IMG/VR virus record: IMGVR_UViG_3300028833_000093
DNA from: an uncultured virus (IMG/VR IMGVR_UViG_3300028833_000093)
Lineage: Duplodnaviria > Heunggongvirae > Uroviricota > Caudoviricetes
Length of the DNA: 64,000 nucleotides
Strand: one strand, 5' to 3'
The notes under the pieces were generated by a model. It worked only from the letters and a program-made list of their open reading frames with translations. It was not told the origin of the DNA and made no database searches. Below are positions 4,854 to 23,461 of the stretch, in pieces (the stretch's first letter is position 1; each line of letters begins with the position of its first letter). Both the position numbers and the translations under genes were made by a program.

Positions 4854-7800
4854 TTATTCTTCTTCAATTATTGTCCATCCTTGTGGAATACCGTTTCCAC
4901 CATCCGGCCAATAAACATTTTTTCTTTTTACAAAGATACCTCCAGATGGAATATTATATGTCCACATTAATGTACTATTATCAATATCTATCCCATTCAC
5001 TGCTAAACATTTTATATATTTTAAGTTTGTACAATTTAAGAACATTTCATAATAACATTCGCTTACTAATGTTTGTGCAGGTAATACAGGAGCTTTAATT
5101 AAGTTTGTACAGCTCTCAAACATGCTAGCATAGCAATAGTATGCTAATTCAGTAGCAGGTAATTCAGTTGCAATTATTAAAGATGTACAACCATAAAACA
5201 TTCCCGCATAGCATTGATTTGATAATTGTGTAGCTGGTAATGCGGGTGGATATAATAAGCTTTTGCAATTTCTGAACATTCCGTTATAACAGCTTTCAGT
5301 CATTATTAGAGCTGGAAGCGCAGGAGGAATAACTAAACTATAACAATCTGTAAACATCCCGATATAACAACCTTCAGCTAATATAGTAGCAGGGAGTTCT
5401 GGAGCAATTATCAGACTAGAACATCCATTAAACATGTTATAATAACATTGTGGTGTTAGCGTTGTAGCAGGTAATTCTGGTGCTGAAGTTAAACCAGTAC
5501 AATTTTGGAACATAACACTATAACAGTTATCAGCTAATGCAGTCGCTGGCAGTTCAGGTGGGGCAATAAGAGCAGTACAGTTGTTAAATAATTCAGAAAA
5601 ACATCCATTATTTGGTATTGTTAAAGTATTACATGCTCCGTTATCTATCAATGACATTATATTTCCGGAAGCTTTTACTTTTCCTAATAATGTAAACCAC
5701 ACACGACGGTACCCACCAAAAAACCATCCACTAAGTCCTTCTGGATAATCTCCTTTTAGACACAATATTGTTCCTTTACTAAATGATATTGGACCTGTGT
5801 AATAATTCCAAGTTTCACCATCATCTAATGAATAGTAAAATTTATCTTCAAAACTCTCATCAGTACATGACCAATAAAATTCAGAATCTTCCACTGCTTC
5901 AAATTTAAGACCAGGATAATTCACTTGTTCAACTGTCCAACCTTCTGGAATACCATTTACTCCAGTCGGCCAATTCGCTTTGTAGTCTTTAATAAATGTA
6001 CCTGTTGCTGCTACTCCATCTACCCAATAATCTGTACTACTATTCGTATATATACCATTAACCGCAAGACATTTAATGTAATTTAAATTACTACAGCCTT
6101 GGAACATGTTAGTATAACACCAATCAACTAATGTTTTAGCAGGTAATACAGGTGCTGTTGTTAAACTACTACAGCCATAGAACATACCACTATAACAGCC
6201 ATTTGCTAATGTAGTCGCCGGTAATTCCGGTACTGTTGTTAAACTGCTACAACTATTGAACATACCCCAATAACAACCATCTGCTAATGTTTTAGCAGGT
6301 AATATTGATGGTGTTGTTGTCAAACTGCTACAATTTTTGAACATGTAATAATAACAATTATTTGCTAATGTAATAGCAGGTAATACAGGTGCTGTTGTTA
6401 GAGAACTGCATCCTAAAAACATTTGTGCATAACAACCATCTGATAATACAATAGCAGGTAATTCCGGTACTGTTGTTAAACTAGTACAGCCTTCAAACAT
6501 ACCATGATAACAACTATCTGCTAATGTAGTAGCAGGTAGTTCGGGAGCAATTATCAGACTAGAACATCCATTAAACATGTTATAATAACATTGGAGTGTT
6601 AGCGTTGTAGCAGGTAATAATTTTTCAGGGATTGAAGTTAAACCAGTACAACCATAAAACATACCATGATAACAATTTTGTGTTAAATATAATGCTGGTA
6701 ATAATTTTTCAGGGATTGAAGTTAAACCAGTACACCCCCAGAACATAGCACAATAACACCAATCTTTCAAACTATTAGAGGGTAATAAGTTTTCTGAAAT
6801 AGATTTAATTCCGGGGCAATCCATAAAACATCTGAAAAAACATCTATCATTAGGGATTGTTAAAGTATTACATGCCCCGTTATCTATCAATGACATTATA
6901 TTTCCTGATATCTCTATTTGTCCGGTTATATGAAAAAATGTATATTTATAAGCTGATAATGAAAATCCATTTGGGTTATCTCCTTTTAACAAAATTACAT
7001 CTCCTTGGTTTAATGATACTAAAGAAGTATGATAATCCCATTCGGTCCAACTTCCGCCATTGATAGCATACCATAAATCTGGAAAATTACTCCCTATATC
7101 ATATATTTCTATAACAGAGTTTTCTAGCGCAGTAAAAGTAAGACCCCTGTAATTATTTATAGTTGTCCACCCGGAAGGAATACCATTATTACCAGATGGC
7201 CATGATGCACTTGGAGATTTGATAAATTTTCCACTAGAAAAAACTCCTTGTACCCAATTAGTAGTGCTATAATGTTGGTTAATTCCTTGTGAGGCAAGAC
7301 ATTTTATATATTTTAACGATGAACATCCTTTGAACATCGCTTGATATACATTATATATCAATGTTCCGTTTCTATAATCTAAAACAGTTGATGGTAATTC
7401 GGGAGCTTTCACTAAACTGCTACAATTCTCGAACATCCCCATATAACATCCATCCGCTAAAGTTCTTGCTGGTAATTCAGGTGCTTCAACCAAACTGCTA
7501 CAACCCCGGAACATATATAGATAGCAGTTTTTTGCTATATCAACAGCTGGTAGTTTCGGAGCGACAGTTAATGAACTACATCCAGAAAACATACTTGTAT
7601 AACAGGCTTGGCTTATATTTTCTACGGATAATAGATCTTCTGGTACCGAAACTAAACCTTGACAATCTTGAAACATCCCACTGTAACTTCTTTCTCCTAG
7701 ATTAGTAGCAGGTAATAAATCATGAGGTAATGATGTTATACTATTACATCCACGAAACATATATTGATACCCGTTATATGGGGTTGTTAAAGCCGGCAAT

Positions 7801-9629
7801 TTTGGTAAATTCGTTATATTTGAGCAATTCTCAAACATTTGGTTATAACACCAATCTTTCAAATTAGTAGCAGGCAATAATTTTTCAGGAAGAGATGTTA
7901 ATCCAGTACATCCATAAAACATACTATTATAGCATCCCTCCGTTAAAGTTCTTGCTGGTAATAGTTTTTCTGGTAAAGATGTTAATCCAGTGCATTCATA
8001 AAACATTCTATAATAACAACCATTTTTTAGAACAGTTGCTGGAAGCAATGTATCAGATATAGATGTTATTCCAGAATGGCCCCCCTTAAAACAGTTTGCG
8101 AAACAATAACTGCATGGAATATCACTTTTATAGGCAACTAATGACATAATACTTCCCGAAACTTCGATAACTCCGGATACATTAAACTCGGTATAATTAT
8201 CGCTATAGTAGGATGAAAATCCATTTGGATTATTTCCTTTCACCCACATTACATCATCTTGGTAAAGGATCACTGAGTCATAATTATCTGACCAATGCAC
8301 CCAGTTTCCTCCATTGATAGCATACCACAAATCTGGGGTATTGTTGAAATTCGATATACCAATTGTACCTAATATACTAGTTGCGTCAATAACAGTAAAA
8401 GTAAGACCAGTGAATTCTTTTTGACTATCATCCCAGCCTGAAGGTATTCCATTCGTTCCCGTTGTCCAAGAAGAATCAGCATTACTTATAAATGTTCCAT
8501 TAGCAGATACACCTGATACCCAATAATATGTACTATTATTCGTATTTATACCATTCACGGCAAGACACTTAATGCGATTCAGATTAGTACATCCTCTAAA
8601 CATTTCAGAGTAACATGATGGTTTCAATTCTGTAGCAGGTAATTCTGGCACCGTAGTTAAACTTGTACAGCCTTCAAACATACTATTATAACAGCTTTCT
8701 GTTAATATTGTTGCTGGAAGTGAAGGAGCTGTTGTTAAACTACTACAATCATTGAACATACCAAAATAACATACTTCTGCTAATATTCTTGCTGGAAGTG
8801 AAGGAGCTGTTGTTAAACTACTACAACCAGAGAACATATGACTATAACAGCCTGTTTTTAATTCATTAGCATGTAACTCTGGTGCTGTTGTTAAACTTGT
8901 GCATACTCTAAACATATCAGCATAACAATGCTGTGCTAATTCAGTAGCGGGGAGCGATGGTGCTAAAGTTAAAGCGGTACATCCGTCAAACATTGCCGAA
9001 TAACATGCATAAGATAATATAGTTGCTGGTAATTCAGGTGCAGTTGTTAAACTTGTGCAAAAATAAAACATATATTGATAACAGTTACTACCTAATGTTG
9101 TTGCTGGTAATTCTGGACCGTGTATCAGATTGGTACAGCTAGAAAACATAGATTGATAACAAAAATCGCTTGCCGTTGTGCTTGGCAATAATAAATCACT
9201 TGCATCTGTTAATCCTGTACAGCCATTAAATAAATATCCCCCGCAATTACTTATTAATTGAGCTTCTAAATCTTTATAATTCCATAAAGCATTACAATTC
9301 CCACTTATAGAAACATCTCCAGTTATAGAAAATGTTGTATTATTCCATCCTGTTAAAATCCCAATCACATAAATTTCGTCATTGGCACTCATGTGGATTG
9401 ATGTACTGGTATCAAAAACATTCCAATCTTTTTGGTTGAAACTAAACCACAATTTTTGGTTATTGCTTAATTTAGATAATCCAATGGTTGAACTTTGATT
9501 TGCCTTAAACGTAACCCATTCTGTTGGCGGGTTATCAAGCAATGGAACTGTCCCTACAAATGCATTATTGGTAGTAAGTTCTTTACTACCATAATACGCT
9601 TTCTTAATATTTAATTTTCCTATCTTCAT
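4854..9629 (-). CDS. large LRR-like (BspA-like) repeat protein with four repeat modules; putative fibre/adhesin
   Basis: 26-aa repeat PELPATTLAxxCYxxMFxGCxSLTxA; each module ends YIKCLA...GIPxGW; N-terminal adaptor-like KIGKLNIKKAYYG. Confidence 0.85.
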   Translation of the reverse strand: MKIGKLNIKKAYYGSKELTTNNAFVGTVPLLDNPPTEWVTFKANQSSTIGLSKLSNNQKLWFSFNQKDWNVFDTSTSIHMSANDEIYVIGILTGWNNTTFSITGDVSISGNCNALWNYKDLEAQLISNCGGYLFNGCTGLTDASDLLLPSTTASDFCYQSMFSSCTNLIHGPELPATTLGSNCYQYMFYFCTSLTTAPELPATILSYACYSAMFDGCTALTLAPSLPATELAQHCYADMFRVCTSLTTAPELHANELKTGCYSHMFSGCSSLTTAPSLPARILAEVCYFGMFNDCSSLTTAPSLPATILTESCYNSMFEGCTSLTTVPELPATELKPSCYSEMFRGCTNLNRIKCLAVNGINTNNSTYYWVSGVSANGTFISNADSSWTTGTNGIPSGWDDSQKEFTGLTFTVIDATSILGTIGISNFNNTPDLWYAINGGNWVHWSDNYDSVILYQDDVMWVKGNNPNGFSSYYSDNYTEFNVSGVIEVSGSIMSLVAYKSDIPCSYCFANCFKGGHSGITSISDTLLPATVLKNGCYYRMFYECTGLTSLPEKLLPARTLTEGCYNSMFYGCTGLTSLPEKLLPATNLKDWCYNQMFENCSNITNLPKLPALTTPYNGYQYMFRGCNSITSLPHDLLPATNLGERSYSGMFQDCQGLVSVPEDLLSVENISQACYTSMFSGCSSLTVAPKLPAVDIAKNCYLYMFRGCSSLVEAPELPARTLADGCYMGMFENCSSLVKAPELPSTVLDYRNGTLIYNVYQAMFKGCSSLKYIKCLASQGINQHYSTTNWVQGVFSSGKFIKSPSASWPSGNNGIPSGWTTINNYRGLTFTALENSVIEIYDIGSNFPDLWYAINGGSWTEWDYHTSLVSLNQGDVILLKGDNPNGFSLSAYKYTFFHITGQIEISGNIMSLIDNGACNTLTIPNDRCFFRCFMDCPGIKSISENLLPSNSLKDWCYCAMFWGCTGLTSIPEKLLPALYLTQNCYHGMFYGCTGLTSIPEKLLPATTLTLQCYYNMFNGCSSLIIAPELPATTLADSCYHGMFEGCTSLTTVPELPAIVLSDGCYAQMFLGCSSLTTAPVLPAITLANNCYYYMFKNCSSLTTTPSILPAKTLADGCYWGMFNSCSSLTTVPELPATTLANGCYSGMFYGCSSLTTAPVLPAKTLVDWCYTNMFQGCSNLNYIKCLAVNGIYTNSSTDYWVDGVAATGTFIKDYKANWPTGVNGIPEGWTVEQVNYPGLKFEAVEDSEFYWSCTDESFEDKFYYSLDDGETWNYYTGPISFSKGTILCLKGDYPEGLSGWFFGGYRRVWFTLLGKVKASGNIMSLIDNGACNTLTIPNNGCFSELFNNCTALIAPPELPATALADNCYSVMFQNCTGLTSAPELPATTLTPQCYYNMFNGCSSLIIAPELPATILAEGCYIGMFTDCYSLVIPPALPALIMTESCYNGMFRNCKSLLYPPALPATQLSNQCYAGMFYGCTSLIIATELPATELAYYCYASMFESCTNLIKAPVLPAQTLVSECYYEMFLNCTNLKYIKCLAVNGIDIDNSTLMWTYNIPSGGIFVKRKNVYWPDGGNGIPQGWTIIEEE

Positions 9630-10130: not shown

Positions 10131-10142
10131 AGTATATATAGT

Positions 10143-10150
10143 TTATTATA
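10143..10150 (+). promoter_or_regulatory. candidate late promoter TTATTATA driving the antisense repeat RNA
   Basis: Matches the TTATTATW motif seen before structural genes; lies 4 nt before the first repeat. Confidence 0.5.
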
Positions 10151-10154
10151 TTCA

Positions 10155-10244
10155 TGTAAGCGTGTGGAAACTATGTTTCGCTTTTGTAACCGTTTGGAAA
10201 CTTTGTTTCGGCTTTGTAAGCGTTCGGAAACTATGTTTCGCAGT
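10155..10244 (+). repeat. 3 x 30-bp tandem repeat with internal palindrome
   Basis: TGTAAGCGTGTGGAAACTATGTTTCGCTTT / TGTAACCGTTTGGAAACTTTGTTTCGGCTT / TGTAAGCGTTCGGAAACTATGTTTCGCAGT. Confidence 0.95.
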
Positions 10245-10272
10245 GAGTGAGATTTTTCTTACTCACTTTTTT
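10155..10272 (+). ncRNA. putative structured small RNA: three bulged tri-loop hairpins plus terminator
   Basis: GCG...CGC changes to CCG...CGG in unit 2 (compensatory); followed by the GTGAGTGAGA...TCTTACTCAC hairpin and T6. Confidence 0.6.
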
Positions 10273-11026
10273 AATGTTTCAAAGAGAAGTGATAATATGC
10301 AGTTATTCTTTCACCACTACTCATAAAATATCTTCCATCAACTTGATATGGGCTTGTTAAACTACCGGATTTTTTATCAACCCCGCTTATTTGCCAAAGC
10401 ATATAATCAGATATCAGTTGTCCATCTCTTTTCACTGCTATACCTGCCCATCTATTGACAAAACTTGCATAGTTATTAGAAAAACTATCACCACACCATA
10501 CTTGATTACCAGTTCCTTCTGCGGTTCCTTTATTTTCATGAAAAAGAAAGCGCTGATATAAAAACTCATCTAACAACTCTTGCCATGTCACCTCATTTCC
10601 TTCTCGATTCTTGGGTAGTACTTCCCAGTAATCGTACAGTTCTGATGCAGCACTCTTCTCCTCTGCATAGACTTTGTACAGGTTTACATAGTTATATGGT
10701 TTAGGAATAATCCATCCACGTCTTTTCTTGACCAGTATTTTTACAGGTACTCCATGCTCATCAGTCTCACCTGTATAATGCCATGTAGGTGTAGCGGTAT
10801 TACGTGCGAACTGTAACTCATCAGTTTCAAGGATAGTACCTTTATAGCACTTGATATATAAATGAGCCTCGTCCGGTTCACCTTCTTCTTCAGTATAAAT
10901 CGTATCTACTTCAAGTTCACAAAACAACTGAGAACCTCCGCCACTCGGTTGAGAATGCTCATCTATATATTCTTTAATCAATCGGTCTCTGTAATCGAGT
11001 TGTTCTAAATCTACAATATTGTCCAT
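10271..11026 (-). CDS. hypothetical protein (paralog A): conserved N-terminal leader plus basic-patch domain
   Basis: N-terminus MDNIVDLEQLDYRDRLIKEYIDEHS nearly identical to that of 11152..11775; KKRRGW patch. Confidence 0.85.
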   Translation of the reverse strand: MDNIVDLEQLDYRDRLIKEYIDEHSQPSGGGSQLFCELEVDTIYTEEEGEPDEAHLYIKCYKGTILETDELQFARNTATPTWHYTGETDEHGVPVKILVKKRRGWIIPKPYNYVNLYKVYAEEKSAASELYDYWEVLPKNREGNEVTWQELLDEFLYQRFLFHENKGTAEGTGNQVWCGDSFSNNYASFVNRWAGIAVKRDGQLISDYMLWQISGVDKKSGSLTSPYQVDGRYFMSSGERITAYYHFSLKH

Positions 11027-11063
11027 TTTATATAATCTATTTTTGTATTTATTGTATATATAA

Positions 11064-11148
11064 GGGATTTAATCCCGGCTATGTGTGCCGATTTAATCGG
11101 ATACGCTATGCCAGCTCGTGGGTTGTTTAACACCTTCGAGCGTTTTTT
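11064..11148 (+). ncRNA. putative structured small RNA: three hairpins with UUA tri-loops, ending in a U-tract
   Basis: GGGAT-TTA-ATCCC; extended stem around CCGAT-TTA-ATCGG; GCTCG..GGTTGT-TTA-ACACC..CGAGC then GTTTTTT. G-U pairs favour the + strand; TTATTGTA at 11049. Confidence 0.6.
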
Positions 11149-11151
11149 ATT

Positions 11152-11775
11152 TTAATAGAGTTGTATTCTCCATTGTGATAAAGGTTCGCAATAGTCTGTT
11201 TGGAAACGAATATGTCCCGATACCGGTGTATCATTTTTTAGTACTATAATACCACCCCGTTTTTGTCGCATCATATCAGCAATTTCTACTCCTAGTATAT
11301 TATCGGCAAATCCTTGATTAATAAAGTCAAGCATATCATAATAATCACCTTCCCAATTACCTCCAATCTCATAATAATCATACCCATCTTTCGAAAAATT
11401 GGGTGTTGACTTATCTTTAAATCCAATTACGATAAGTGGTATTCTGTCTTTTGATGGTGCTTTCCATACCTGATGCAATCCTTTCCATTTATTCGCGCGC
11501 CCAGGTATCTCAGCACGTTTATTTCTCTGTCTGACTGTACCGCTACGCATATAAAGTAATGAATAATCGGTTATATCAGTACCTATAGGAAAACCAAGAT
11601 ATAAATGCTGTTCGTCCTGACCTGATGGCGAGACATCCTCGCGTTGTCGTGTTAAAACCATTCGTAAAGGCGAATAATCAGATGATCCGCCTCCTGAATG
11701 CGAATGCTCATCAATATATTCTTTTATGAGTTGGTCTCTATAATCGAGTTGTTCTAAATTTACTATATTTTCCAT
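11152..11775 (-). CDS. hypothetical protein (paralog B): conserved N-terminal leader plus basic-patch domain
   Basis: Start reassigned to MENIVNLEQLDYRD; shares DExHLY, LxY/FxR, YDYxE and RxxGIxV motifs with paralog A. Confidence 0.85.
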   Translation of the reverse strand: MENIVNLEQLDYRDQLIKEYIDEHSHSGGGSSDYSPLRMVLTRQREDVSPSGQDEQHLYLGFPIGTDITDYSLLYMRSGTVRQRNKRAEIPGRANKWKGLHQVWKAPSKDRIPLIVIGFKDKSTPNFSKDGYDYYEIGGNWEGDYYDMLDFINQGFADNILGVEIADMMRQKRGGIIVLKNDTPVSGHIRFQTDYCEPLSQWRIQLY

Positions 11776-11791
11776 ATTTTTATATTTGTAT

Positions 11792-14227
11792 TTATGCATT
11801 TTCTATTGTCCAACCAGAAGGTATACCATTCACTCCCGATGGCCATGATGCTGATGTGTCTTTCACAAACGTACCAGTACTTGCTATCTCCTTAACCCAA
11901 TTAGCTGTACTGTTATTCTGATTTATTCCATTAACAGCAAGACATTTGATGTAATTTAAACTTGTACACTTATAGAACATTTGTTGATAGCAACGATTTA
12001 CTAAGTTGATAGCATGAAGTATCGGAGCAGTAGTTAAGCTAATACAATTATAAAACATATAATTGTAACATGAAGATGCTAATGTAGTAGCGGGTAATTC
12101 ACGAACTGAAATTAAACCGGTACAATTCCAAAACATTTCACTATAACAATGATCTACTAATTCGGTTGCTGGTAGTTCAGGAGCTGAAGATAGACTAGTA
12201 CAGTCTTTAAACATGTCACTATAACAATATTTTGCTAATTCAGTAGCGGGCAGTTGAGGAGCAGTAACTAACGAGGAACATGCACTGAACATTCCACTAT
12301 AACAGCTATTTGCTAGTGTAGTAGCAGGGAGTGCAGGTGCTCCTGTAAGAGAGCTGCAACCAGCGAACATATAAGCATAGCAATAATCAGCTAATTCAGT
12401 AGCATGGAGTGCAGGTACTGTAGTCAAACTAGTACATCTGTAAAACATGTCACTATAACAATTTGTCGCTAGAACAGTAGCTGGTAGTTCTGGAGAATCC
12501 ATTAAATTATTACATGAACTAAAAAGACCAGTATAACCATAACAATATTCTGATAAGATGCTTGAGTATAATAATAGGTTTTGGGCATGCTGTAATTTTG
12601 TATAAACTCCTTCTTCGACAGCATTCCCAAATATTCCGCTAAATGCTGGTCTTATTATAGGTTCTCCTCCGGTATCTTCGTAAGATGGTTTTACAAACCA
12701 GCTAGATAAATCTTCTACTTTTCCTTCCGGACGAAGCAATGTGGTTATATCGCCAAACACATTCAATAGTGGTTCTTGTTCATAAACAAATCCTACCGTA
12801 TCTCGGTCACCATCAAAGTATTTATAAAATTGATTTCTATTATTTCCCCTAAAATAAATCTCAGAATGAATTTCTGACGGGGCTTCTGGCCAATATACTC
12901 CATCTTCTGAATGACTGTCTATAAGAGTTATCCAATTTATTTTATCATAAGAATATTCTATATTATAGCTATCTCCATCTACCTGGGTTGTTTGTTTTTC
13001 AACTCCTACAATGATGCTATAATCTGGGTTTTCTCCTACGAAAGAAAACCCAAGATATTTAATCTCATCATAATTATCAATCTCCCAATTGTATGGTATA
13101 CCACTAGGACCAGTACTGTAATCTACTGCTACTGGTTTAGAAAAAGTTCCTTCCTCAGCTACCCCTTGAAGCCAATTAGTAGTACAATTATCCGCTGATA
13201 TATCTACTGCACAACATTTGATGTAATTAAGATTCTCACAGCCTTGGAACATTTCACGATAACAACTAGGAGATAATATAGTTGCTATTAGCTCTGGAGC
13301 TGAGGTTAAACTACTACAACCAGCGAACATTTGAGCATAACAACTACTTGCCAATATTGTTGCTGGTAATTCGGGTGCTTCTGTAAGAGAGTTGCAGAAT
13401 ATAAACATTTCATAATAACACCAATGTGCTAATTTAGTTGCAGAAAGTTTTGGTGCCTTTGTAAGAGATCTGCACGAACTGAACATATTGCTGTAACAAT
13501 GATCTGATAACTGTTTCGCAGGCAATTCAACTGGTCCATCTATCAAATTATAACACTCTTCAAACATCCTGCTATAGCATGAAGGGGTTGTGTTAGATGG
13601 GAAAACCAACGCGGTTGCATCAGATATAGGAGTATAAGAGAATAATAATTCAAAGTTTGCTGTAAGAGGAAGAGTATCAGTGTGTCCTATTATATCAATT
13701 AGAGATGTTAGTTTCCCTGATAACAAAATGTCTTTATTGTCCCAGGAATCATTATCAAAGTCAAACCATCCGTGTTCATGAATATCTCCACTTGGATGAT
13801 ATCCAACTATTTTCAATTCATTCCCCGGTTGGATGGTATAAAACTCATTCAATTCTAGAGGGACTAACTCATCGTCATCAATGTAAAAGAAATGTGATTG
13901 AACTTCACTATCTTCACGGGATCTAAATTTGACTTTACAGTCTATAGATCCATGATTCGTGAAGGTTAAAGCATTCTGTTTAATCTCCTCTATGTCGTAG
14001 AAGATCTTTATAAAATGCAAATAATTATCTTCGCTTGATACCGGTTCTAATCCTTCTGCACCAGTGACAGGTACTAACTCATCAAACTTTACATCACCAT
14101 CCCATAACATCTTGATAATCTCATTCGGTACAGTCTCGTAGATTTCACCCGGTTTATATGTTTGTTCTTTATTATTTACCCAATCTCGAACGGCATCCAA
14201 TATATTTTTTATGGTTCCTTCTTTCAT
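11792..14227 (-). CDS. LRR-like repeat protein with two modules; putative fibre/adhesin
   Basis: Same 26-aa repeat and YIKC...GIPxxW caps. Confidence 0.85.
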   Translation of the reverse strand: MKEGTIKNILDAVRDWVNNKEQTYKPGEIYETVPNEIIKMLWDGDVKFDELVPVTGAEGLEPVSSEDNYLHFIKIFYDIEEIKQNALTFTNHGSIDCKVKFRSREDSEVQSHFFYIDDDELVPLELNEFYTIQPGNELKIVGYHPSGDIHEHGWFDFDNDSWDNKDILLSGKLTSLIDIIGHTDTLPLTANFELLFSYTPISDATALVFPSNTTPSCYSRMFEECYNLIDGPVELPAKQLSDHCYSNMFSSCRSLTKAPKLSATKLAHWCYYEMFIFCNSLTEAPELPATILASSCYAQMFAGCSSLTSAPELIATILSPSCYREMFQGCENLNYIKCCAVDISADNCTTNWLQGVAEEGTFSKPVAVDYSTGPSGIPYNWEIDNYDEIKYLGFSFVGENPDYSIIVGVEKQTTQVDGDSYNIEYSYDKINWITLIDSHSEDGVYWPEAPSEIHSEIYFRGNNRNQFYKYFDGDRDTVGFVYEQEPLLNVFGDITTLLRPEGKVEDLSSWFVKPSYEDTGGEPIIRPAFSGIFGNAVEEGVYTKLQHAQNLLLYSSILSEYCYGYTGLFSSCNNLMDSPELPATVLATNCYSDMFYRCTSLTTVPALHATELADYCYAYMFAGCSSLTGAPALPATTLANSCYSGMFSACSSLVTAPQLPATELAKYCYSDMFKDCTSLSSAPELPATELVDHCYSEMFWNCTGLISVRELPATTLASSCYNYMFYNCISLTTAPILHAINLVNRCYQQMFYKCTSLNYIKCLAVNGINQNNSTANWVKEIASTGTFVKDTSASWPSGVNGIPSGWTIENA

Positions 14228-14245
14228 AATATATTATTCTTTCTT

Positions 14246-14611
14246 TTATTCGTTATCAAATTCGCTCAATTCTTCATAGGCTTCTTCGTAAGAGACATAT
14301 TCAATATCTCCTCCACTGCCAATTTTCTTAATAGTACCGTCTCCTTGAATGACATATGCATCATAAATACCGGTTTCTTCATCATCTTCGCCAGTAGTCC
14401 CTGTTTTTACTCCGATAATTTGTCCCGCATAGGATTGTAAGTATAGATTACGTTCATCCGGAGTCCTCGCGCTGCCTTTCGCATAATTCTCCGCATCTTC
14501 GACACTTAAGAACAAAGCTGTGATGTCTAAAGGAAATGCATTGTTTCGTTTTGTTGCACCCGGTAATAGTACAGACGGTTTGAATGTATATTCGTCGTAT
14601 TCTTTTGCCAT
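14246..14611 (-). CDS. virion-associated adaptor-like protein; paralog of the N-terminus of 18567..20822
   Basis: About 95 shared residues, MAKxYxxYxFxPSVLLPG...YAGQIIGVK...IQGDGTxKKxG; late motif at 14639-14646. Confidence 0.8.
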   Translation of the reverse strand: MAKEYDEYTFKPSVLLPGATKRNNAFPLDITALFLSVEDAENYAKGSARTPDERNLYLQSYAGQIIGVKTGTTGEDDEETGIYDAYVIQGDGTIKKIGSGGDIEYVSYEEAYEELSEFDNE

Positions 14612-14873
14612 TGTTCAAAATAAATAATTACTTAATACAATAATAATCTGCTGACATGAAAAATGACACAAAAACATTGTGTCATTTTCTTGATTTTTAT
14701 CGTTTATATTAAAGAACCTTAATGATGTAGTTCAATGTAAAATATGGAATGTCAAAAAAGAACCTCATGGTTCTCTTTTTCTTAGGTTATATCGTAGTTC
14801 CAGATAGGATCTATTTGCTTGAATTTATACCCTTTACTGATATATAAGTTCTTAGTCTCTTCACTTAACAAAT

Positions 14874-14950
14874 CTATATTTCTAGCATATCTGCATCGAG
14901 TACATTCCATCCTAATGGTATACCACTTGATCCAGCGTTAGTATCATCAT
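14874..14950 (-). pseudogene. remnant of an LRR-module C-terminal cap
   Basis: Start-less frame translating as AGSSGIPLGWNVLD, matching the GIPxGW cap, inside a 400-bp intergenic gap. Confidence 0.4.
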
Positions 14951-14981
14951 ATTCAATAATAAGATAAAGAATATGATAAAT

Positions 14982-15010
14982 AAAGAGAGGAACTATTGAT
15001 CCTCTCTTTT
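14982..15010. terminator. intrinsic terminator
   Basis: AAAGAGAGGA-ACTATTGA-TCCTCTCTTT directly after the stop of 15010..15840. Confidence 0.7.
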
Positions 15011-15840
15011 TATGATTGTAGTGGTACGATTGTCCAGTTCGTTGGTATGCCTGATTCTCCTGATGACCATATAGATGAGTCTGGAGTCAAGAACGTACCT
15101 GTAGGAGATACTCCGCGTAGCCAATAAGTGGTAGAATTATTTACTCCTATTCCAGTGGAGGCAAGACATTTGATGTGATTGAGAGGGGTACAATTTTCAA
15201 ACATTCTATTGTAACATGCTGTGACTAATGAGTTTGCATTCAGATCAGGAGCATTTGTCAAAGATGAGCACCCCTCGAACATTGCTGCATAACAACCAAC
15301 GGCCAATGTTGTTGCAGGTAGTTCAGGCGCTGTTATTAGAGAACTACAACCTGAGAACATACTACCATAACAACTATATACAAGATTCATAGCTGGTAAT
15401 TCTGGTGCTGTTATTAGAGAACTACAACCTTCGAACATGTGATCTCCACAAAGTTCTTTTAACGGAGCATTTGGATTACTATAATTCCATAGATAATTGC
15501 AGTTACCAGATGCTGCGATTAAACCGGTCATTGTGAATCGGGTGTAATCAGTGGTAGTATTATTACCACTCAATACACCTCTAATATATACTTCATCATC
15601 TTGATCTAGATTAACAGTTACAGTAGTATCAAAAGTAGACCAATTGATTTTGTCTTGCGAATATTCTAAACTCTGATGAGAACTCAGTCTATTCAATCCA
15701 ATAGAACTACTATTTTGTAAAGCCTTAAATGTTACCCAAGGTTCAACAGGCCATACTTGTATATTACCCAAGTATGCTTTAGACACTTGAGTAGAACCAA
15801 GAAATATATTCGTTATACCGATATTTCCAATGTTTATCAT
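15010..15840 (-). CDS. LRR-like repeat protein, one module, with adaptor-binding N-terminus
   Basis: MINIGNIGITNIFLGSTQVSKAYLGNIQVWP followed by a repeat module. Confidence 0.85.
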   Translation of the reverse strand: MINIGNIGITNIFLGSTQVSKAYLGNIQVWPVEPWVTFKALQNSSSIGLNRLSSHQSLEYSQDKINWSTFDTTVTVNLDQDDEVYIRGVLSGNNTTTDYTRFTMTGLIAASGNCNYLWNYSNPNAPLKELCGDHMFEGCSSLITAPELPAMNLVYSCYGSMFSGCSSLITAPELPATTLAVGCYAAMFEGCSSLTNAPDLNANSLVTACYNRMFENCTPLNHIKCLASTGIGVNNSTTYWLRGVSPTGTFLTPDSSIWSSGESGIPTNWTIVPLQS

Positions 15841-16004
15841 TTAATGATATATAATATATTATCTGATTTTGTTGTTATTGCATCATACTCTGCCTGAGTT
15901 CCAGACCAGATAGTTTTAATAGTTTCAGATTCGACTTTTATTGCTACTTTATCATTCACCCAACGGCGAATACCGACAAGCATATTTTGTAAATTTCTAT
16001 TCAT
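15837..16004 (-). CDS. 55-aa fibre adaptor peptide (not in the ORF track)
   Basis: MNRNLQNMLVGIRRWVNDKVAIKVESETIKTIWSGTQAEYDAITTKSDNILYIIK; ATGA overlap with the next gene. Confidence 0.85.
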   Translation of the reverse strand: MNRNLQNMLVGIRRWVNDKVAIKVESETIKTIWSGTQAEYDAITTKSDNILYIIK

Positions 16005-16027
16005 AGTAAATTATTTTTTCATATTTT

Positions 16028-18370
16028 TTAAGTAGTTGGTATTGCTTGAATTCTTGAAGCATATGTTGACCAACCGGTTGTTGCTTTATATGTTTCTACA
16101 GATTCAGTTGGAACATATAGTGGACAGTTATTCGTATTGCTAAACATATAGCTTGCAACTCCACCAATCGTTGGTGGTGTTGTGCAATATAATGTAATAT
16201 AAGTTAATCCTGAGCAATCTTTGAATGCAGCATGATCTATAATCGTTACATTAGCAGGAATAATCACATGTGATAATGTGGTACATCCTTCAAATGTTTG
16301 TATATCTATTTTACTAACATCTGTACCTATTTCAACATATTCTAATGTTGAAAGATAAGGAGAAACACGTTCTGATTTTAATGTATTATATACATCTGCT
16401 TCTATCTCCACATCTGGATTACCATTATTCAAATGAAGTATTGTATGTGAAGGTGTTTCTGGAGAATTCAATATCTCAATTGTCTCTGCAGTAGTTATCA
16501 CAAAATCTGTTATATCAGCAATAACATGAGTGTGTGCAAAATCAGTAATCTCTGATTTAGTATGTGTGTGTCCAACATTGGATTTTCCATCTAATGCATT
16601 TTGTAATGCAATATCATCATAATGATTTACTACTGTCCAACCGGTCGGAATTCCTTCATAATAACTACTAGATGTACTCCAGTTTGTCATGTTTGCATCT
16701 TTTACAAATGTACCAGATGCTGCTACATTTTGTACCCAATATAATGTACAATATGTTGCAGATATATCAGTAGCAAGACATTTAATATAATTTAATGAAG
16801 TACAGCCCTTAAACATTTGATAGTAACACCGTTGTGCTAATGTTTTTGCTGGAAGTTCTGGAGCAGTAGTTAATGCAGTACAACCAAAAAACATACTACT
16901 ATAACATCCATATTCCAATGTAGTTGCAGGTAATATCGGGGTTTTTGTTAAAGCAATACAACCTTCAAACATACTATTATAACAATAAGTTGATAGTGTT
17001 TTTGCTGGAAGTTCTGGAGCAGTAGTTAATGCAGTACAACCTCGGAACATATTAGCATAGCATCTTTGTGCCAATATTGTTGCAGGTAATTCTGGTGCTG
17101 AAGTTAAACCGGTACATACATAGAACATACCTTCATAACAACTTTCTTTCATTATTGTTGCTGGTAACGCCGGTGCGGCAGTTAAACTGGTACATCCATT
17201 AAACATAGCACCATAACAACTCTTCGCTAATGTAGTTGCAGGAAGTTCGGGAGCAGCAGTTAAAGATGAACAGTTATGAAATGCTCGAATAAAACAATAA
17301 CTACATGGTATTGTATCAACTTCTTCTGTATAGTCAATGAGAGACATGATGTTTCCTGATGCAGCAATTATACCAGTAATCACAAATTCACTAAACATAC
17401 TATCCGACTTAGAAAAACCATTTGGATTCATACCCCTCATCAAAACGGTGTCATCAATATTGTTAAGTGTAATAGTCGAATAATCCCATATAGTCCATGT
17501 GCCCCCATTATTTGTACTAATTTCTATATTAGGAGCATTATCTCCAGTGTTAGTAATAGAAATTGTACTACCTGCTTGTTGAGCTGTAAAACAAAGTGGA
17601 GTAGGATAAATTTTATCTACTTTTTTATCAAGCAATGAATCAGTCTCAGTTTTTGTATAGTATTGAGACAAGTCAATACGTGTAGAACCAATTTTTTCCC
17701 ATTGACTGTTTACCCAAATATATTCGTCTTTAATGTCTTGAGAAGGATGTTGACGATATTCAAAAAATGCAGGGAATTCATCCACATCAATATAATCTTC
17801 TGTTGGTTCGGTTTGTTCGAATGTATAGATCTGTCCGATTATATCTCCGCCAACGCTTTCCGGAAGATCGTATATTCCATTTACCTGATAGAATGCATTT
17901 TGTTCATAGTCCTCTGTTGTAACTCCAAATAACTCTCCATCCAATTCAAGTTCTTCAAGATTGACTGCAGTAGCAAAAGTAAATTCTTCATCACTCTCTG
18001 GATCTGGATTTTCTCTAGTACATTTTATTACATCTCCGATAGAAAGTTTTGAACTGGGCTGAGGATTTGTCATATGTTGAGGATATGTCCCATCTGCATA
18101 AAGAATAGACATGTGTTCAATGCTTTCATCTAGTGCAGGTACTAAATAGATAGTGTTCTTTTTACCTCGTGATGGTAATTCATCTACTACCTGAATAGAA
18201 AAACCGAAGCGATTTACTAGCTCTACTATCTTTTGTGATGAGTATGTAGTATATAAACTCACATTCTCATCATCAATCACATCGGTCATTGCTTCTTTTA
18301 ACAGATTGAGCTTTTTCGCTAAGACTTTCGGAAAAGCAAGATCCACCTTATTGAAATCTATATCTATCAT
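16028..18370 (-). CDS. mosaic fibre protein with an LRR-like module, HTH-tripeptide fibre repeats and a C-terminal BspA-type LRR
   Basis: TTYSSQKI, VVDELP...TIYLV, EYIWVNSQWEKIG, HTHTKSEITDFAHTH, AFKDCSGLT...LYVPTESVETYK. Confidence 0.85.
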   Translation of the reverse strand: MIDIDFNKVDLAFPKVLAKKLNLLKEAMTDVIDDENVSLYTTYSSQKIVELVNRFGFSIQVVDELPSRGKKNTIYLVPALDESIEHMSILYADGTYPQHMTNPQPSSKLSIGDVIKCTRENPDPESDEEFTFATAVNLEELELDGELFGVTTEDYEQNAFYQVNGIYDLPESVGGDIIGQIYTFEQTEPTEDYIDVDEFPAFFEYRQHPSQDIKDEYIWVNSQWEKIGSTRIDLSQYYTKTETDSLLDKKVDKIYPTPLCFTAQQAGSTISITNTGDNAPNIEISTNNGGTWTIWDYSTITLNNIDDTVLMRGMNPNGFSKSDSMFSEFVITGIIAASGNIMSLIDYTEEVDTIPCSYCFIRAFHNCSSLTAAPELPATTLAKSCYGAMFNGCTSLTAAPALPATIMKESCYEGMFYVCTGLTSAPELPATILAQRCYANMFRGCTALTTAPELPAKTLSTYCYNSMFEGCIALTKTPILPATTLEYGCYSSMFFGCTALTTAPELPAKTLAQRCYYQMFKGCTSLNYIKCLATDISATYCTLYWVQNVAASGTFVKDANMTNWSTSSSYYEGIPTGWTVVNHYDDIALQNALDGKSNVGHTHTKSEITDFAHTHVIADITDFVITTAETIEILNSPETPSHTILHLNNGNPDVEIEADVYNTLKSERVSPYLSTLEYVEIGTDVSKIDIQTFEGCTTLSHVIIPANVTIIDHAAFKDCSGLTYITLYCTTPPTIGGVASYMFSNTNNCPLYVPTESVETYKATTGWSTYASRIQAIPTT

Positions 18371-18399
18371 TGTATATATGTGTGTATTTATGAATTTTC

Positions 18400-18542
18400 A
18401 AAAAAGCGTGACGGAGCTACCTGAATATCGAATTTTAACCCTTAGCACAGGGGGTTGGGCTGAAATAGTATTTAGTTATAACCACGAGATTATCGGGGTA
18501 ACCAAGGGCCGTAACATTATATATGCGCAACAACCCCGCCAC
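18400..18542 (-). ncRNA. putative ~140-nt structured RNA with long nested stems, downstream of gene 18567..20822
   Basis: On the minus strand CGTGGCGGGGTTGTT pairs with GGTAGCTCCGTCACG (15 bp, several G-U), AATGTT with GATATT, and GGCCCTTGGT with GCTAAGGGTT; ends in T6; GC-rich island in AT-rich DNA. Confidence 0.6.
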
Positions 18543-18556
18543 GTTTGTATCGTTAT

Positions 18557-18590
18557 TTTATTACTTTTACCAATTTATTACTTTTACCAA
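18557..18590. repeat. 17-bp perfect tandem duplication at the gene end
   Basis: TTTATTACTTTTACCAA x2. Confidence 0.9.
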
Positions 18591-20822
18591 TTTGTTAGTT
18601 AATACATATTCATCAGTAATTCCATTATTGGTCATTCTTGCATTAGCGAATATCTTATATGGTAATACTTCTGTACGTATTAAGTGTTCTGTGTCGTTGA
18701 TTTTGGTGTTTTTACAATATACTAAATTCATACCAATTATTGCACTTATGTTTTGCGTATATGCAGTTTGACCAGTAATCATCGGATCATACAATCCATA
18801 TAAAAGAAATTCTCTTTTCTTATCTCCAATGGTTAAACGGGTATACTTAATATTATTTTGTCTTGCTAAATTAGTTCTCGTACCATATTTCAATACCTCA
18901 TGTAATGTAATTGGGTCTTGTCCTGATATGGGTTTTATTCTAAAAAATCCATCCATCAAGTTTTTTACAGTAATCGGCATGATATAGGTACATCCATTTA
19001 ATGTTCTATCACAATATCTATTTGCAGCATCACTTGCATCGGAATATGAAGTATAAGGTGTTTCGTTATTCAGATATTCTAAACTATATTTTTGTTTATT
19101 GAAACTTTGTCCAGAATTATTGGTTATATTGTGATGTATTGCTCTCCATTTATTTGATGAACCGTGACTTCTACTGGTATATGAACGTTTTGCATAAAAC
19201 ACAATAGATAAGTATGGTTCATTTAATCGAACAAATTCCATATTATCACAATGTACACGAATACAAATCATTTTATCTCTTATACCATAGCTTTGATTTA
19301 TATCGTTATCCATTTGTTCACTATAAGAAGGAACTGTCTTTACTTCAAATGTAATATCGGTTTTCTTGAAAGTGGGTTTCCATTCTCTCCAGCTTTGTCC
19401 ATATATTTTCGTTCTTACATAATCTACATCTGAATTATACAAATGCTGAGTTGTTTTATTTCCTTCTTTTTTGATGGAGACATTGAATATAGTACAAATT
19501 CGTGATTCTTTATTGATAACTGGTAATGTATACTCCGCAGAAAGCACCAATGAATTCAGTACAGGTTCAACAGCACTTAATAATGGTATATATGCACCAC
19601 AATATAATGTAGTATTTGATGTATTGTTGTAATAAGTTATTCCATGAGTTGTGTTACAAAATACTTCCGGTAATCGTTTAGGCATATTCTGAGACAGCTC
19701 ATCTTCAGACAATAATACCATCACTCCTTCATTACCATCCCAAGTATATACATTTCCGTCATAGTCATTGATATAGAATATATTTTCTTGGAACTTATCT
19801 GTTTCATTGTATTCTTTATATACATTGTTTCCGGGTATTATATCTCCATCTAAATCGTCTAAGAAAAGTCTATAAACAGTATCTGGCTCTTGTGGGAAAT
19901 AGATTACTCGATTGTAAATTGGTGATGTTATCTGTACCCATTCACCACTATCATCTTCATAATCATATGTCCATTTATAAATAAGATATATATCATCACT
20001 ACTATATGCAATAAGAATTTTTCCTACCTCTCTTTGTGTAAGCTCTGGAAAACTTCCACTCTCGGGAGTATAATAATCAGCTCTCAAGAAGTGGACAGAA
20101 TTCGTTACAATACTACCATCGCCGTTATTTGTAGTGAATATCTCTTGTACAGGATCCCAATAATATAGTTCTGAAGTATTCGTAGACAAGTAGATTTTTT
20201 CAGTACTTGGCTCTCCTTGTTCCCATTGACCAGTAGTAGGATCTTGCTCGTCTTTCACATATACCCAAATCTCAGTCTTGTCTTGAGTAATAAATGGAAG
20301 TGATTTTGAAGCTAACAACCATTGATTTTCATACTCTGGTTCTTCTCCAGGCTCTGCAATATTCACTTTAGTGAGCACATAGAGTAATTGGTTTTCATTA
20401 TCATACCAGTAATCACCCAACATATAATCCTCTTCTTGGGGTTGCGTACTACTTACTATATTAGGTATTACTACATTGACTATACTGCTTTCAATTACTG
20501 CTTCCCCATCACTTGAGTTATCTAAAGTACCGAGTTTTTTGAGAGTTCCATCTCCTTGTATGATATATGCGTCATATAATCCTGTTTCATTATCTCCATT
20601 ACCTACAGTGCCTGCTTTGACACCAATAATCTGTCCCGCATATGCTTGAAGACCTAAGTATCGTTCATCTAAATCAGAGATGTCTCCTTTTGCATATTTG
20701 ATTGCATCATTTACAGATAGAAATAATGCACTCATATCTAAAGGCCATGCACCATTTCTCTTTAATGTCCCGGGTAATAAGACAGAAGGATTGAAATCAT
20801 ATGAATTATAATCTTTTGCCAT
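18567..20822 (-). CDS. multi-domain virion protein (paralog C): acidic N-terminal part, basic C-terminal domain
   Basis: N-terminus shared with 14246..14611; C-terminal SIVFYAKRS...NKWRAIHH resembles LLYMRS...NKWKGLH of paralog B. Confidence 0.85.
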   Translation of the reverse strand: MAKDYNSYDFNPSVLLPGTLKRNGAWPLDMSALFLSVNDAIKYAKGDISDLDERYLGLQAYAGQIIGVKAGTVGNGDNETGLYDAYIIQGDGTLKKLGTLDNSSDGEAVIESSIVNVVIPNIVSSTQPQEEDYMLGDYWYDNENQLLYVLTKVNIAEPGEEPEYENQWLLASKSLPFITQDKTEIWVYVKDEQDPTTGQWEQGEPSTEKIYLSTNTSELYYWDPVQEIFTTNNGDGSIVTNSVHFLRADYYTPESGSFPELTQREVGKILIAYSSDDIYLIYKWTYDYEDDSGEWVQITSPIYNRVIYFPQEPDTVYRLFLDDLDGDIIPGNNVYKEYNETDKFQENIFYINDYDGNVYTWDGNEGVMVLLSEDELSQNMPKRLPEVFCNTTHGITYYNNTSNTTLYCGAYIPLLSAVEPVLNSLVLSAEYTLPVINKESRICTIFNVSIKKEGNKTTQHLYNSDVDYVRTKIYGQSWREWKPTFKKTDITFEVKTVPSYSEQMDNDINQSYGIRDKMICIRVHCDNMEFVRLNEPYLSIVFYAKRSYTSRSHGSSNKWRAIHHNITNNSGQSFNKQKYSLEYLNNETPYTSYSDASDAANRYCDRTLNGCTYIMPITVKNLMDGFFRIKPISGQDPITLHEVLKYGTRTNLARQNNIKYTRLTIGDKKREFLLYGLYDPMITGQTAYTQNISAIIGMNLVYCKNTKINDTEHLIRTEVLPYKIFANARMTNNGITDEYVLTNKLVKVINW

Positions 20823-23136: not shown

Positions 23137-23304
23137 TTAAGCTAACTTTATTGCGTCTTGTGGACAGTTATCTAAACAGGTTCGACATTCTGTACACACA
23201 TCTGGATCAATTTGATAGATTTCTCCTTCAGTGATTGCTCCCATCGGACAGTTCTCAGCACATGTTCCACAAGCGACACAGTCTTTAGTAATTTTATATG
23301 CCAT
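23137..23304 (-). CDS. 2[4Fe-4S] ferredoxin, 55 aa (not in the ORF track)
   Basis: MAYKITKDCVACGTCAENCPMGAITEGEIYQIDPDVCTECRTCLDNCPQDAIKLA: two CxxCxxCxxxCP motifs. Confidence 0.95.
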   Translation of the reverse strand: MAYKITKDCVACGTCAENCPMGAITEGEIYQIDPDVCTECRTCLDNCPQDAIKLA

Positions 23305-23320
23305 ATCTATTCATTGTTTT

Positions 23321-23461
23321 TTATACTCTTCCTTGTCCACGATAAGCTTTCTTGTAGTTTTTAGATGATTTCAAACGAGATGTTTTCTTTTTTGAATGTA
23401 CACCAGGTCTTTTGATTGTCGGATGATCTACATAGCTTACACTTGCGATTGCCTTTGCCAT
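23321..23461 (-). CDS. 46-aa very basic protein ending YRGQGR (not in the ORF track)
   Basis: MAKAIASVSYVDHPTIKRPGVHSKKKTSRLKSSKNYKKAYRGQGRV; resembles small YRGQG proteins of T4-like phages. Confidence 0.8.
   Translation of the reverse strand: MAKAIASVSYVDHPTIKRPGVHSKKKTSRLKSSKNYKKAYRGQGRV

What the first reader, a model, noticed from the sequence alone, without database searches (positions are those of the whole stretch)
10143..20822. Three related basic-domain virion genes, each paired with its own structured RNA: candidate undescribed ribonucleoprotein module
Seen: genes 10271..11026 and 11152..11775 are clear paralogs. They share a ~25-aa leader, then DExHLY, LxF/YxR, a basic patch (KKRRGW / RQRNKR...NKWKGLH), YDYxE and RxxGIxV. 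The C-terminal ~250 aa of 18567..20822 looks like a remote third member (FYAKRS...NKWRAIHH; TVKNLMDGFF vs TWQELLDEFL). Each of these three genes is followed within about 25 nt of its stop by an 85-140-nt GC-enriched multi-stem element; I saw only simple terminators or no gap after the other genes in the cluster. The three elements differ in sequence, as do the protein domains. Inference: each protein binds its own cognate small RNA and the pairs diversify together. Because they sit among fibre/adhesin genes and carry adaptor-like N-termini, they may form RNA-containing virion appendages or receptor-binding tips. I do not recognise this as a named system.
Basis: partly seen in the sequence, partly recalled or inferred. 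Interest (0 to 1): 0.92.

Follow-up and report, generated by a model that had tools for sequence, protein, structure and literature searches.

The report
Phage tail protein with partner RNA
Two neighbouring tail-region genes of a rumen giant phage each face a small three-hairpin RNA gene on the opposite strand, a pairing kept in distant phage relatives, which suggests an undescribed protein-RNA partnership in building or tipping the virus particle, though binding is untested.

Summary
Two of the three genes hold up. 10271..11026 (A) and 11152..11775 (B) belong to an unnamed phage tail-module family: Ig-like fold, basic insert, no convincing match in four family libraries or the PDB. The third gene (18567..20822) failed every homology test, and its downstream element differs.

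Main correction: the RNAs most likely run on the opposite strand, towards the stop codon. In 24 of 25 prophage/virome homolog loci a full Bacteroidetes promoter lies antisense, 77-129 nt from the stop (control: 2 of 206 other ORFs). In the window and one rumen contig a phage promoter-like motif takes that place. Each unit is 80-130 nt, mostly three hairpins. Stems covary (12 of 17 pairs), loops repeat within one RNA, and loop type follows the protein clade.

Best reading: a cognate RNA-protein pair in which three hairpins engage three subunits of a fibre-tip protein, as assembly cofactor or cap (about 0.5). No transcript, binding or trimer is shown. No Rfam match or paper was found. This scan noted similar triple-hairpin elements on other DNA three times, read there as parts of the message.

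The parts
10271..11026 (-). Gene A, 251 aa: helical leader, Gly linker, family domain (A-like clade)
11152..11775 (-). Gene B, 207 aa: same leader and domain (B-like clade); model is an Ig-like beta-sandwich with a basic insert at about residues 71-101
10142..10150 (+). Phage promoter-like motif TTTATTATA pointing into RNA A
   Evidence: same motif lies 33-42 nt before 8 gene starts in the window; role as promoter inferred
10155..10244 (+). RNA A body: three 30-nt units, each with apex GAAAC-NNN-GTTTC
   Evidence: 0 of 100 shuffles reach three copies; each unit only about -3 to -4 kcal/mol
10242..10272 (+). RNA A terminator hairpin and T-run ending on the stop codon of gene A
   Evidence: -15.6 kcal/mol on +, -11.0 on -
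11048..11056 (+). One-mismatch copy of the promoter-like motif pointing into RNA B
   Evidence: exact motif at the same place in homolog locus L033
11062..11150 (+). RNA B: hairpins 11064-11076 and 11085-11104 (apex GATTTAATC) and 11114-11141 (terminator-like, T-run follows)
18567..20822 (-). Gene C, 751-aa fibre-like protein; C-terminal ~260 aa resemble the family by eye only; membership not supported
18400..18543 (-). GC-richer element after gene C: 15-bp closing stem (with G-U) and T-run on the gene strand; other architecture, unexplained
   Evidence: no Rfam match

Best explanation
Each A/B-type gene and the unit behind it form a two-part module. The protein is a tail-module (fibre-tip or side-fibre) subunit: an N-terminal docking helix or fibre shaft ending in an Ig-like domain with a long basic insert. 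Facing it, a separate promoter makes an 80-130-nt RNA of about three hairpins that ends at the gene's stop codon. The hairpins show the same apex on unrelated stems, so they are equivalent binding sites. Most likely three subunits each grip one hairpin with the basic insert, so the RNA acts like a tail-fibre assembly chaperone or cap made of RNA and may stay on the particle. Shown from sequence: paralogy of A and B, the family, linkage of element to gene, antisense promoter and T-run, stem covariation, repeated loops, basic insert. Inferred: that the RNA is made (about 0.85), that it binds the adjacent protein (about 0.6), that the protein is a trimer and the complex acts in or on the virion (about 0.4).
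For: Linkage: element present at 28 of 28 family loci with downstream DNA (24 MAG loci, 1 IMG/VR locus, 1 rumen contig, window A and B). Own promoter: strict TTTG-N19-21-TAnnTTTG antisense in 24 of 25 prophage/virome loci, one with TTGG; control 12 of 12 family genes versus 2 of 206 other ORFs; consensus as in PMC7366714 (passage). The T4-like phages use a different motif at the same place and strand. Among 23 non-redundant elements: T-run of 4 or more at the antisense 3' end in 21, lower energy antisense in 20, G-U pairs 96 versus 29. Covariation in 9 B-clade RNAs: 94.8% of cells paired versus 70.6% shuffled, 12 of 17 pairs with two-sided changes, slid controls 25-44%; 42 of 44 flanking pairs around 22 apices versus 19.7 shuffled. 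A 9-mer in three copies in 13 of 24 elements. Loop type follows the protein tree. An RNA model found 5 matches in 150 genomes, all 5 at a family gene. Insert K+R fraction 0.26 versus 0.10 elsewhere, higher in 51 of 53 sequences parsed out of 63. Genes sit among tail, fibre and lysis genes; one member shares its leader with 3 non-family fibre-like ORFs.
Against: No transcript evidence. Co-variation of loop and protein is also what plain linkage gives. Folding z-scores do not pick the strand: sense better in 9 of 17, antisense in 7, one tie. 11 of 24 elements, window B among them, lack a significant triple repeat, some have four or five hairpins (L028-L031, L072), and 2 of 23 lack the T-run. Fibre-repeat matches in fused members are below Pfam's cut-offs (YadA_head 18.7 of 25 bits, PTR 26.6 of 27). 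In prophages the promoter is the host housekeeping type, so the RNA may be made in lysogens, which an assembly factor would not need. The structure was drawn from the same sequences. The MAG loci come from one family and are not independent draws; an order-wide sample added no true member in 400 further genomes.
Confidence: 0.5

Rival explanations
1. Gene regulation. The convergent promoter and its RNA damp or time the late operon by antisense pairing or polymerase collision at this junction, and the adjacent protein binds the loops as a feedback regulator.
For: The unit is antisense to any read-through message, and its promoter overlaps the 5' region of the next gene. A housekeeping promoter in prophages suits silencing of leaky late genes.
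Against: The RNA ends at the stop codon and does not overlap coding sequence. Antisense action needs neither three equal loops nor clade-specific loops. The domain is fused to long fibre-like shafts in some members (P0032, P0042, L027, L068, L072).
Confidence: 0.2
2. Toxin-antitoxin or defence pair: the protein is harmful to the cell or to competing phages and the repeated RNA holds it inactive, as in type III systems.
For: Protein plus repeated structured RNA with own promoter and terminator, pair-specific sequences, prophage location.
Against: Type III systems have the RNA upstream in the same operon and usually a ribonuclease toxin (PMC12283969, passages); here it is downstream and opposite. 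No PADLOC family matches more than 1 of 55 members, best E 0.005. Invariant positions are Gly, Pro and aromatic, with no clear catalytic set.
Confidence: 0.12
3. The hairpins work on the gene strand as a stabilising 3' tail or processing signal of the message, or as DNA operator palindromes; no separate RNA exists.
For: Hairpins fold on both strands, and z-scores favour the sense strand in 9 of 17. Earlier notes of this scan read similar elements this way. Weak fold neighbours include DNA-binding IPT/TIG domains, Z about 4.
Against: It does not explain the antisense promoter in 24 of 25 loci versus 2 of 206 controls, the switch to a phage motif on the same strand, or the G-U bias of 96 to 29. 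Variable but paired stems argue against double-stranded operators.
Confidence: 0.1
4. The RNA is a sponge for a host RNA-binding protein, in the manner of CsrB/RsmZ (recalled), and merely travels with the gene.
For: Several equal hairpin loops in one small RNA with its own promoter.
Against: Loops differ between loci in the same host genus, even within one genome (G308, G921), and between A and B in one phage; no orphan RNA copy in 150 genomes (29 candidates scored per genome).
Confidence: 0.08

Closest known systems
Tail-fibre assembly chaperones and caps (Tfa of phage Mu; Alteromonas A5 gp9, V22 gp27; PMC10579305, passages read)
   Same: A cognate partner encoded right behind a fibre gene, proposed to act at the fibre tip and in some cases to stay bound.
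   Different: The partner here is an RNA on the opposite strand with its own promoter, not a co-transcribed protein.
Type III toxin-antitoxin systems (toxIN, cptIN, tenpIN; PMC12283969, passages read)
   Same: A protein paired with a repeated structured RNA; pair-specific sequences.
   Different: RNA is downstream and convergent, simple hairpins, no Rfam match; protein is tail-module-like with no toxin family match.
CsrB/RsmY/RsmZ sponge RNAs (recalled, not from a call)
   Same: Several hairpins presenting one loop motif on unrelated stems.
   Different: The loop is not fixed across the family but changes with the adjacent phage protein.
phi29 prohead RNA (recalled, not from a call)
   Same: A phage small RNA that serves in particle assembly with a cognate protein.
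   Different: Belongs to the packaging motor; no Rfam match here; this unit lies in tail and fibre modules.

Membership tests
Type III toxin-antitoxin | RNA repeats and terminator upstream of the toxin gene in one operon | tested here: not met
   unit is downstream and on the opposite strand
Type III toxin-antitoxin | Toxin of the ToxN, CptN or TenpN families | tested here: not met
   no such match for 45-55 members in Pfam, PADLOC, PHROGs, NCBIfam
Type III toxin-antitoxin | Toxicity neutralised by the RNA | not testable with these tools
   needs expression tests
Tfa-type fibre chaperone | Chaperone is a protein encoded after the fibre gene | tested here: not met
   the 80-130-nt unit is a covarying hairpin array
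Tfa-type fibre chaperone | Needed for folding or capping of the fibre tip | not testable with these tools
   needs co-expression tests
Any Rfam RNA family | Match at gathering score | tested here: not met
   0 in the window; only chance-level hits at E up to 10; only a tRNA in 14 homolog loci
Diversity-generating retroelement accessory hairpin | Reverse transcriptase and template repeat in the locus | tested here: not met
   RT-like ORF in 3 of 14 fetched regions (3 of 12 family genes; several contigs short) and none in the window by motif scan
A/B domain family (this work), for gene C | Profile-level homology | tested here: not met
A/B domain family (this work), for gene C | Same fold | tested here: inconclusive
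   model of C failed, pLDDT 31 on 8 close sequences
Known Ig-like domain families (IPT/TIG, FN3, TcpF C-domain) | Fold match above common-arrangement level | tested here: inconclusive
   best Z 5.0, rmsd 4.0, 108 aligned

The most novel reading that the evidence does not exclude
These phages build ribonucleoprotein fibre tips: a trimeric tail protein carries a three-hairpin RNA on the mature virion, where it caps the tip or takes part in host recognition, and protein and RNA diversify as matched pairs (two pairs side by side in this phage).
Probability: 0.3. Interest if true: 0.95.

Novelty: categorically new. Interest (0 to 1): 0.8.

Why it matters
To my knowledge (recalled) tailed-phage fibres and their chaperones are made of protein only. 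A small RNA bound to a tail-module protein, in siphovirus-like prophages and T4-like jumbo phages alike, would add a new role for RNA in virion assembly or host recognition. The family also offers natural protein-hairpin pairs with different loops, so specificity can be tested by simple swaps. Even under the regulatory reading, it is an uncatalogued phage small-RNA family tied to an unnamed protein family.

Tried and rejected
No whole genome is held for the window. IMG/VR scans with A, B, C and alignment A2 found no confirmed relative; INPHARED tblastn with three members found none. ESM Atlas gave no usable hit for B or C. PDB sequence search: best E 0.04; Foldseek against BFVD and PDB: none at E 0.001. 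Trimer prediction of B gave no verdict (score 0.01); it is not used either way. Contigs of two RNA-labelled sheep-gut runs of one sample and two DNA runs cover scattered pieces of the region and cannot show start, strand or level of an 80-130-nt RNA. One search repeated the genome sample; one search added no new locus. Rows dropped before counting: L007 (E 0.054); L036 (455-aa membrane-like protein, partial match, no promoter); L003 and L005 (match to the search motif only); L034 (leader only, no downstream DNA); P0058 (repeat protein, left out of alignments); 5 near-duplicate loci left out of the 23. Pattern scans were mostly chance: 1 true locus of 27 in IMG/VR, 4 of 13 in GTDB. Literature searches (listings only) showed no description. 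PMC10690425: passages and 6 of 9 supplementary files searched for the loop motifs, none found; the three unread files may hold its RNA lists. bioRxiv 10.64898/2026.09.22.753630: abstract and passages, concerns other systems; supplements not seen.

Full report
Setting. The window is part of a T4-like jumbo phage: portal, tail tube, baseplate hub and head-closure matches. The best-holding runs are sheep gut metagenomes, possibly the source. The finding lies in a minus-strand block of fibre-like genes with BspA-type, collagen and phage-tail repeats.

Proteins A and B. They align at 36% with a shared 25-residue leader. B finds 20 relatives, A-like ones among them; a profile of these finds 44 cluster representatives at E 0.001 or better among 1.84 billion. 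Most are 170-300 aa; in some the domain ends a long fibre-like protein (P0032, P0042). No member has a convincing match in Pfam, PHROGs, PADLOC or NCBIfam. The model of B is confident (pLDDT 85.6): an N-terminal helix, a loose linker and a mainly beta domain. Its best fold match is Z 5.0, followed by IPT/TIG and FN3 domains at Z 4-4.5, which says Ig-like arrangement and no more. The stretch between the conserved Arg and the GW motif, strands 71-83 and 95-101 in the model, is basic across the family: K+R 0.26 against 0.10 (53 of 63 sequences parsed).

Protein C. It has 4 full-length hits including itself and fragments, all 70% identical or more. A very remote relation is not excluded; it is not supported. 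The element behind C has a 15-bp closing stem and T-run on the gene strand, no repeated apex and no folding excess.

Homolog loci. A motif scan of GTDB gave 4 true loci among 13, in Paludibacteraceae and Bacteroidales MAGs. Profile searches gave 10 more in 401 genomes of that family and 10 more in 261 genomes of one genus; IMG/VR gave one and JGI/metagenome contigs one usable locus, L033. The longer contexts show prophage tail, fibre and lysis genes. All 28 family loci with downstream DNA, A and B included, have a hairpin cluster that begins at the stop codon.

Strand. Behind the hairpins, on the opposite strand, 24 of 25 prophage or virome loci carry the full Bacteroidetes promoter TTTG-N19-21-TAnnTTTG, 77-129 nt from the stop; L071 has TTGG (consensus in PMC7366714, passage). 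In 206 kb around 12 of these genes, 12 of 12 family genes and 2 of 206 other ORFs show this. In the window, the motif TTTATTAT(T/A) occurs 20 times, 13 of them intergenic, 8 at 33-42 nt before a gene start (no shuffle control, AT-rich gaps). One copy points into element A, a one-mismatch copy into element B, and an exact copy into the element of L033. Two different promoter types thus sit at the same place and strand. The antisense strand ends in a hairpin and T-run in 21 of 23 non-redundant elements, folds lower in 20, and holds 96 G-U pairs against 29. Folding z-scores alone do not favour it.

RNA build. Units are 77-129 nt. A 9-mer occurs three times in 13 of 24 elements, each reached by at most 1 of 100 shuffles; the other 11, window B among them, have mixed apices. 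Most apices read GA...TC. Stems around equal apices differ in sequence but stay paired: 42 of 44 positions; on an alignment of 9 B-clade RNAs, 94.8% of cells pair and 12 of 17 pairs change on both sides (structure drawn by me from these sequences). Loop type follows the protein tree: B, L033 and L017 share GATTTAATC, six prophage relatives GATNCTATC, and A-like clades have their own (A and B are long branches). Element A's apex resembles that of L026 by eye only. A covariance model found 5 matches in 150 genomes, all at family genes, and picked the unrelated-clade element of L068 on the antisense strand at E 0.0014.

Mechanism. Equal apices on free stems mean repeated binding sites for one partner. 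Apices that change with the neighbouring protein, differ between two tandem paralogs, and are not found apart from the gene point to that protein as partner; its basic insert is the likely grip. Fibre-type leaders, fusions to fibre-like shafts and gene position suggest a virion protein, and phage fibres are usually trimers (established knowledge), which matches three hairpins. The nearest working analogy is the fibre chaperone or cap encoded behind a fibre gene (PMC10579305, passages). These last steps are inference: no transcript, binding, oligomer or virion evidence is in hand. Regulation of the late operon, a toxin-antitoxin-like pair, a sense-strand tail and a host-protein sponge remain open, in that order.

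Prior knowledge. No Rfam family matches, and ten paper searches, one of them for the promoter consensus only, showed no description. This scan has three notes on triple-hairpin elements beside fibre or tail genes on other DNA; sequence look-ups found no look-alike, so I cannot tell whether they are this family. They read the element as part of the message; the antisense promoter found here argues otherwise for this family.

Verdict. Two real, cognate-looking gene-RNA pairs; third gene unsupported. Uncatalogued protein family and RNA family in a layout unlike the known kinds tested. Interest 0.8.

Noticed in passing
window 23137-23304 (-): Short ORF for a 55-aa protein with two CxxCxxCxxxCP motifs, a 2[4Fe-4S] ferredoxin by motif, inside the fibre gene block.
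   Followed up: no
window 23321-23461 (-): 46-aa very basic ORF next to the ferredoxin-like gene.
   Followed up: no
window 18400-18543: GC-richer element after gene C with a long closing stem and T-run on the gene strand and recurring GGTT(A/G) words; may be another structured RNA; no homolog DNA available.
   Followed up: partly
window, e.g. 23064, 25524, 25584, 28434, 40784, 40802, 60102, 61413: Motif TTTATTAT(T/A) 33-42 nt before the first genes of divergent blocks: candidate late promoter of this phage.
   Followed up: partly
L016 6862-10263, L008 6909-10266: DGR-like cassette (target gene, accessory gene, template repeat, reverse transcriptase, read by eye) two genes after the family gene in three related prophages.
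   Followed up: partly
window 14246-14611 and 20500-20822: A 121-aa ORF repeats the N-terminal ~100 residues of gene C as a stand-alone gene.
   Followed up: no
window 4854-9629, 11792-14227, 15010-15840, 16028-18370: Four genes with long cysteine-rich BspA-like repeat arrays among the fibre genes.
   Followed up: no
window 18557-18590: Exact 17-nt direct repeat spanning the stop codon of gene C.
   Followed up: no
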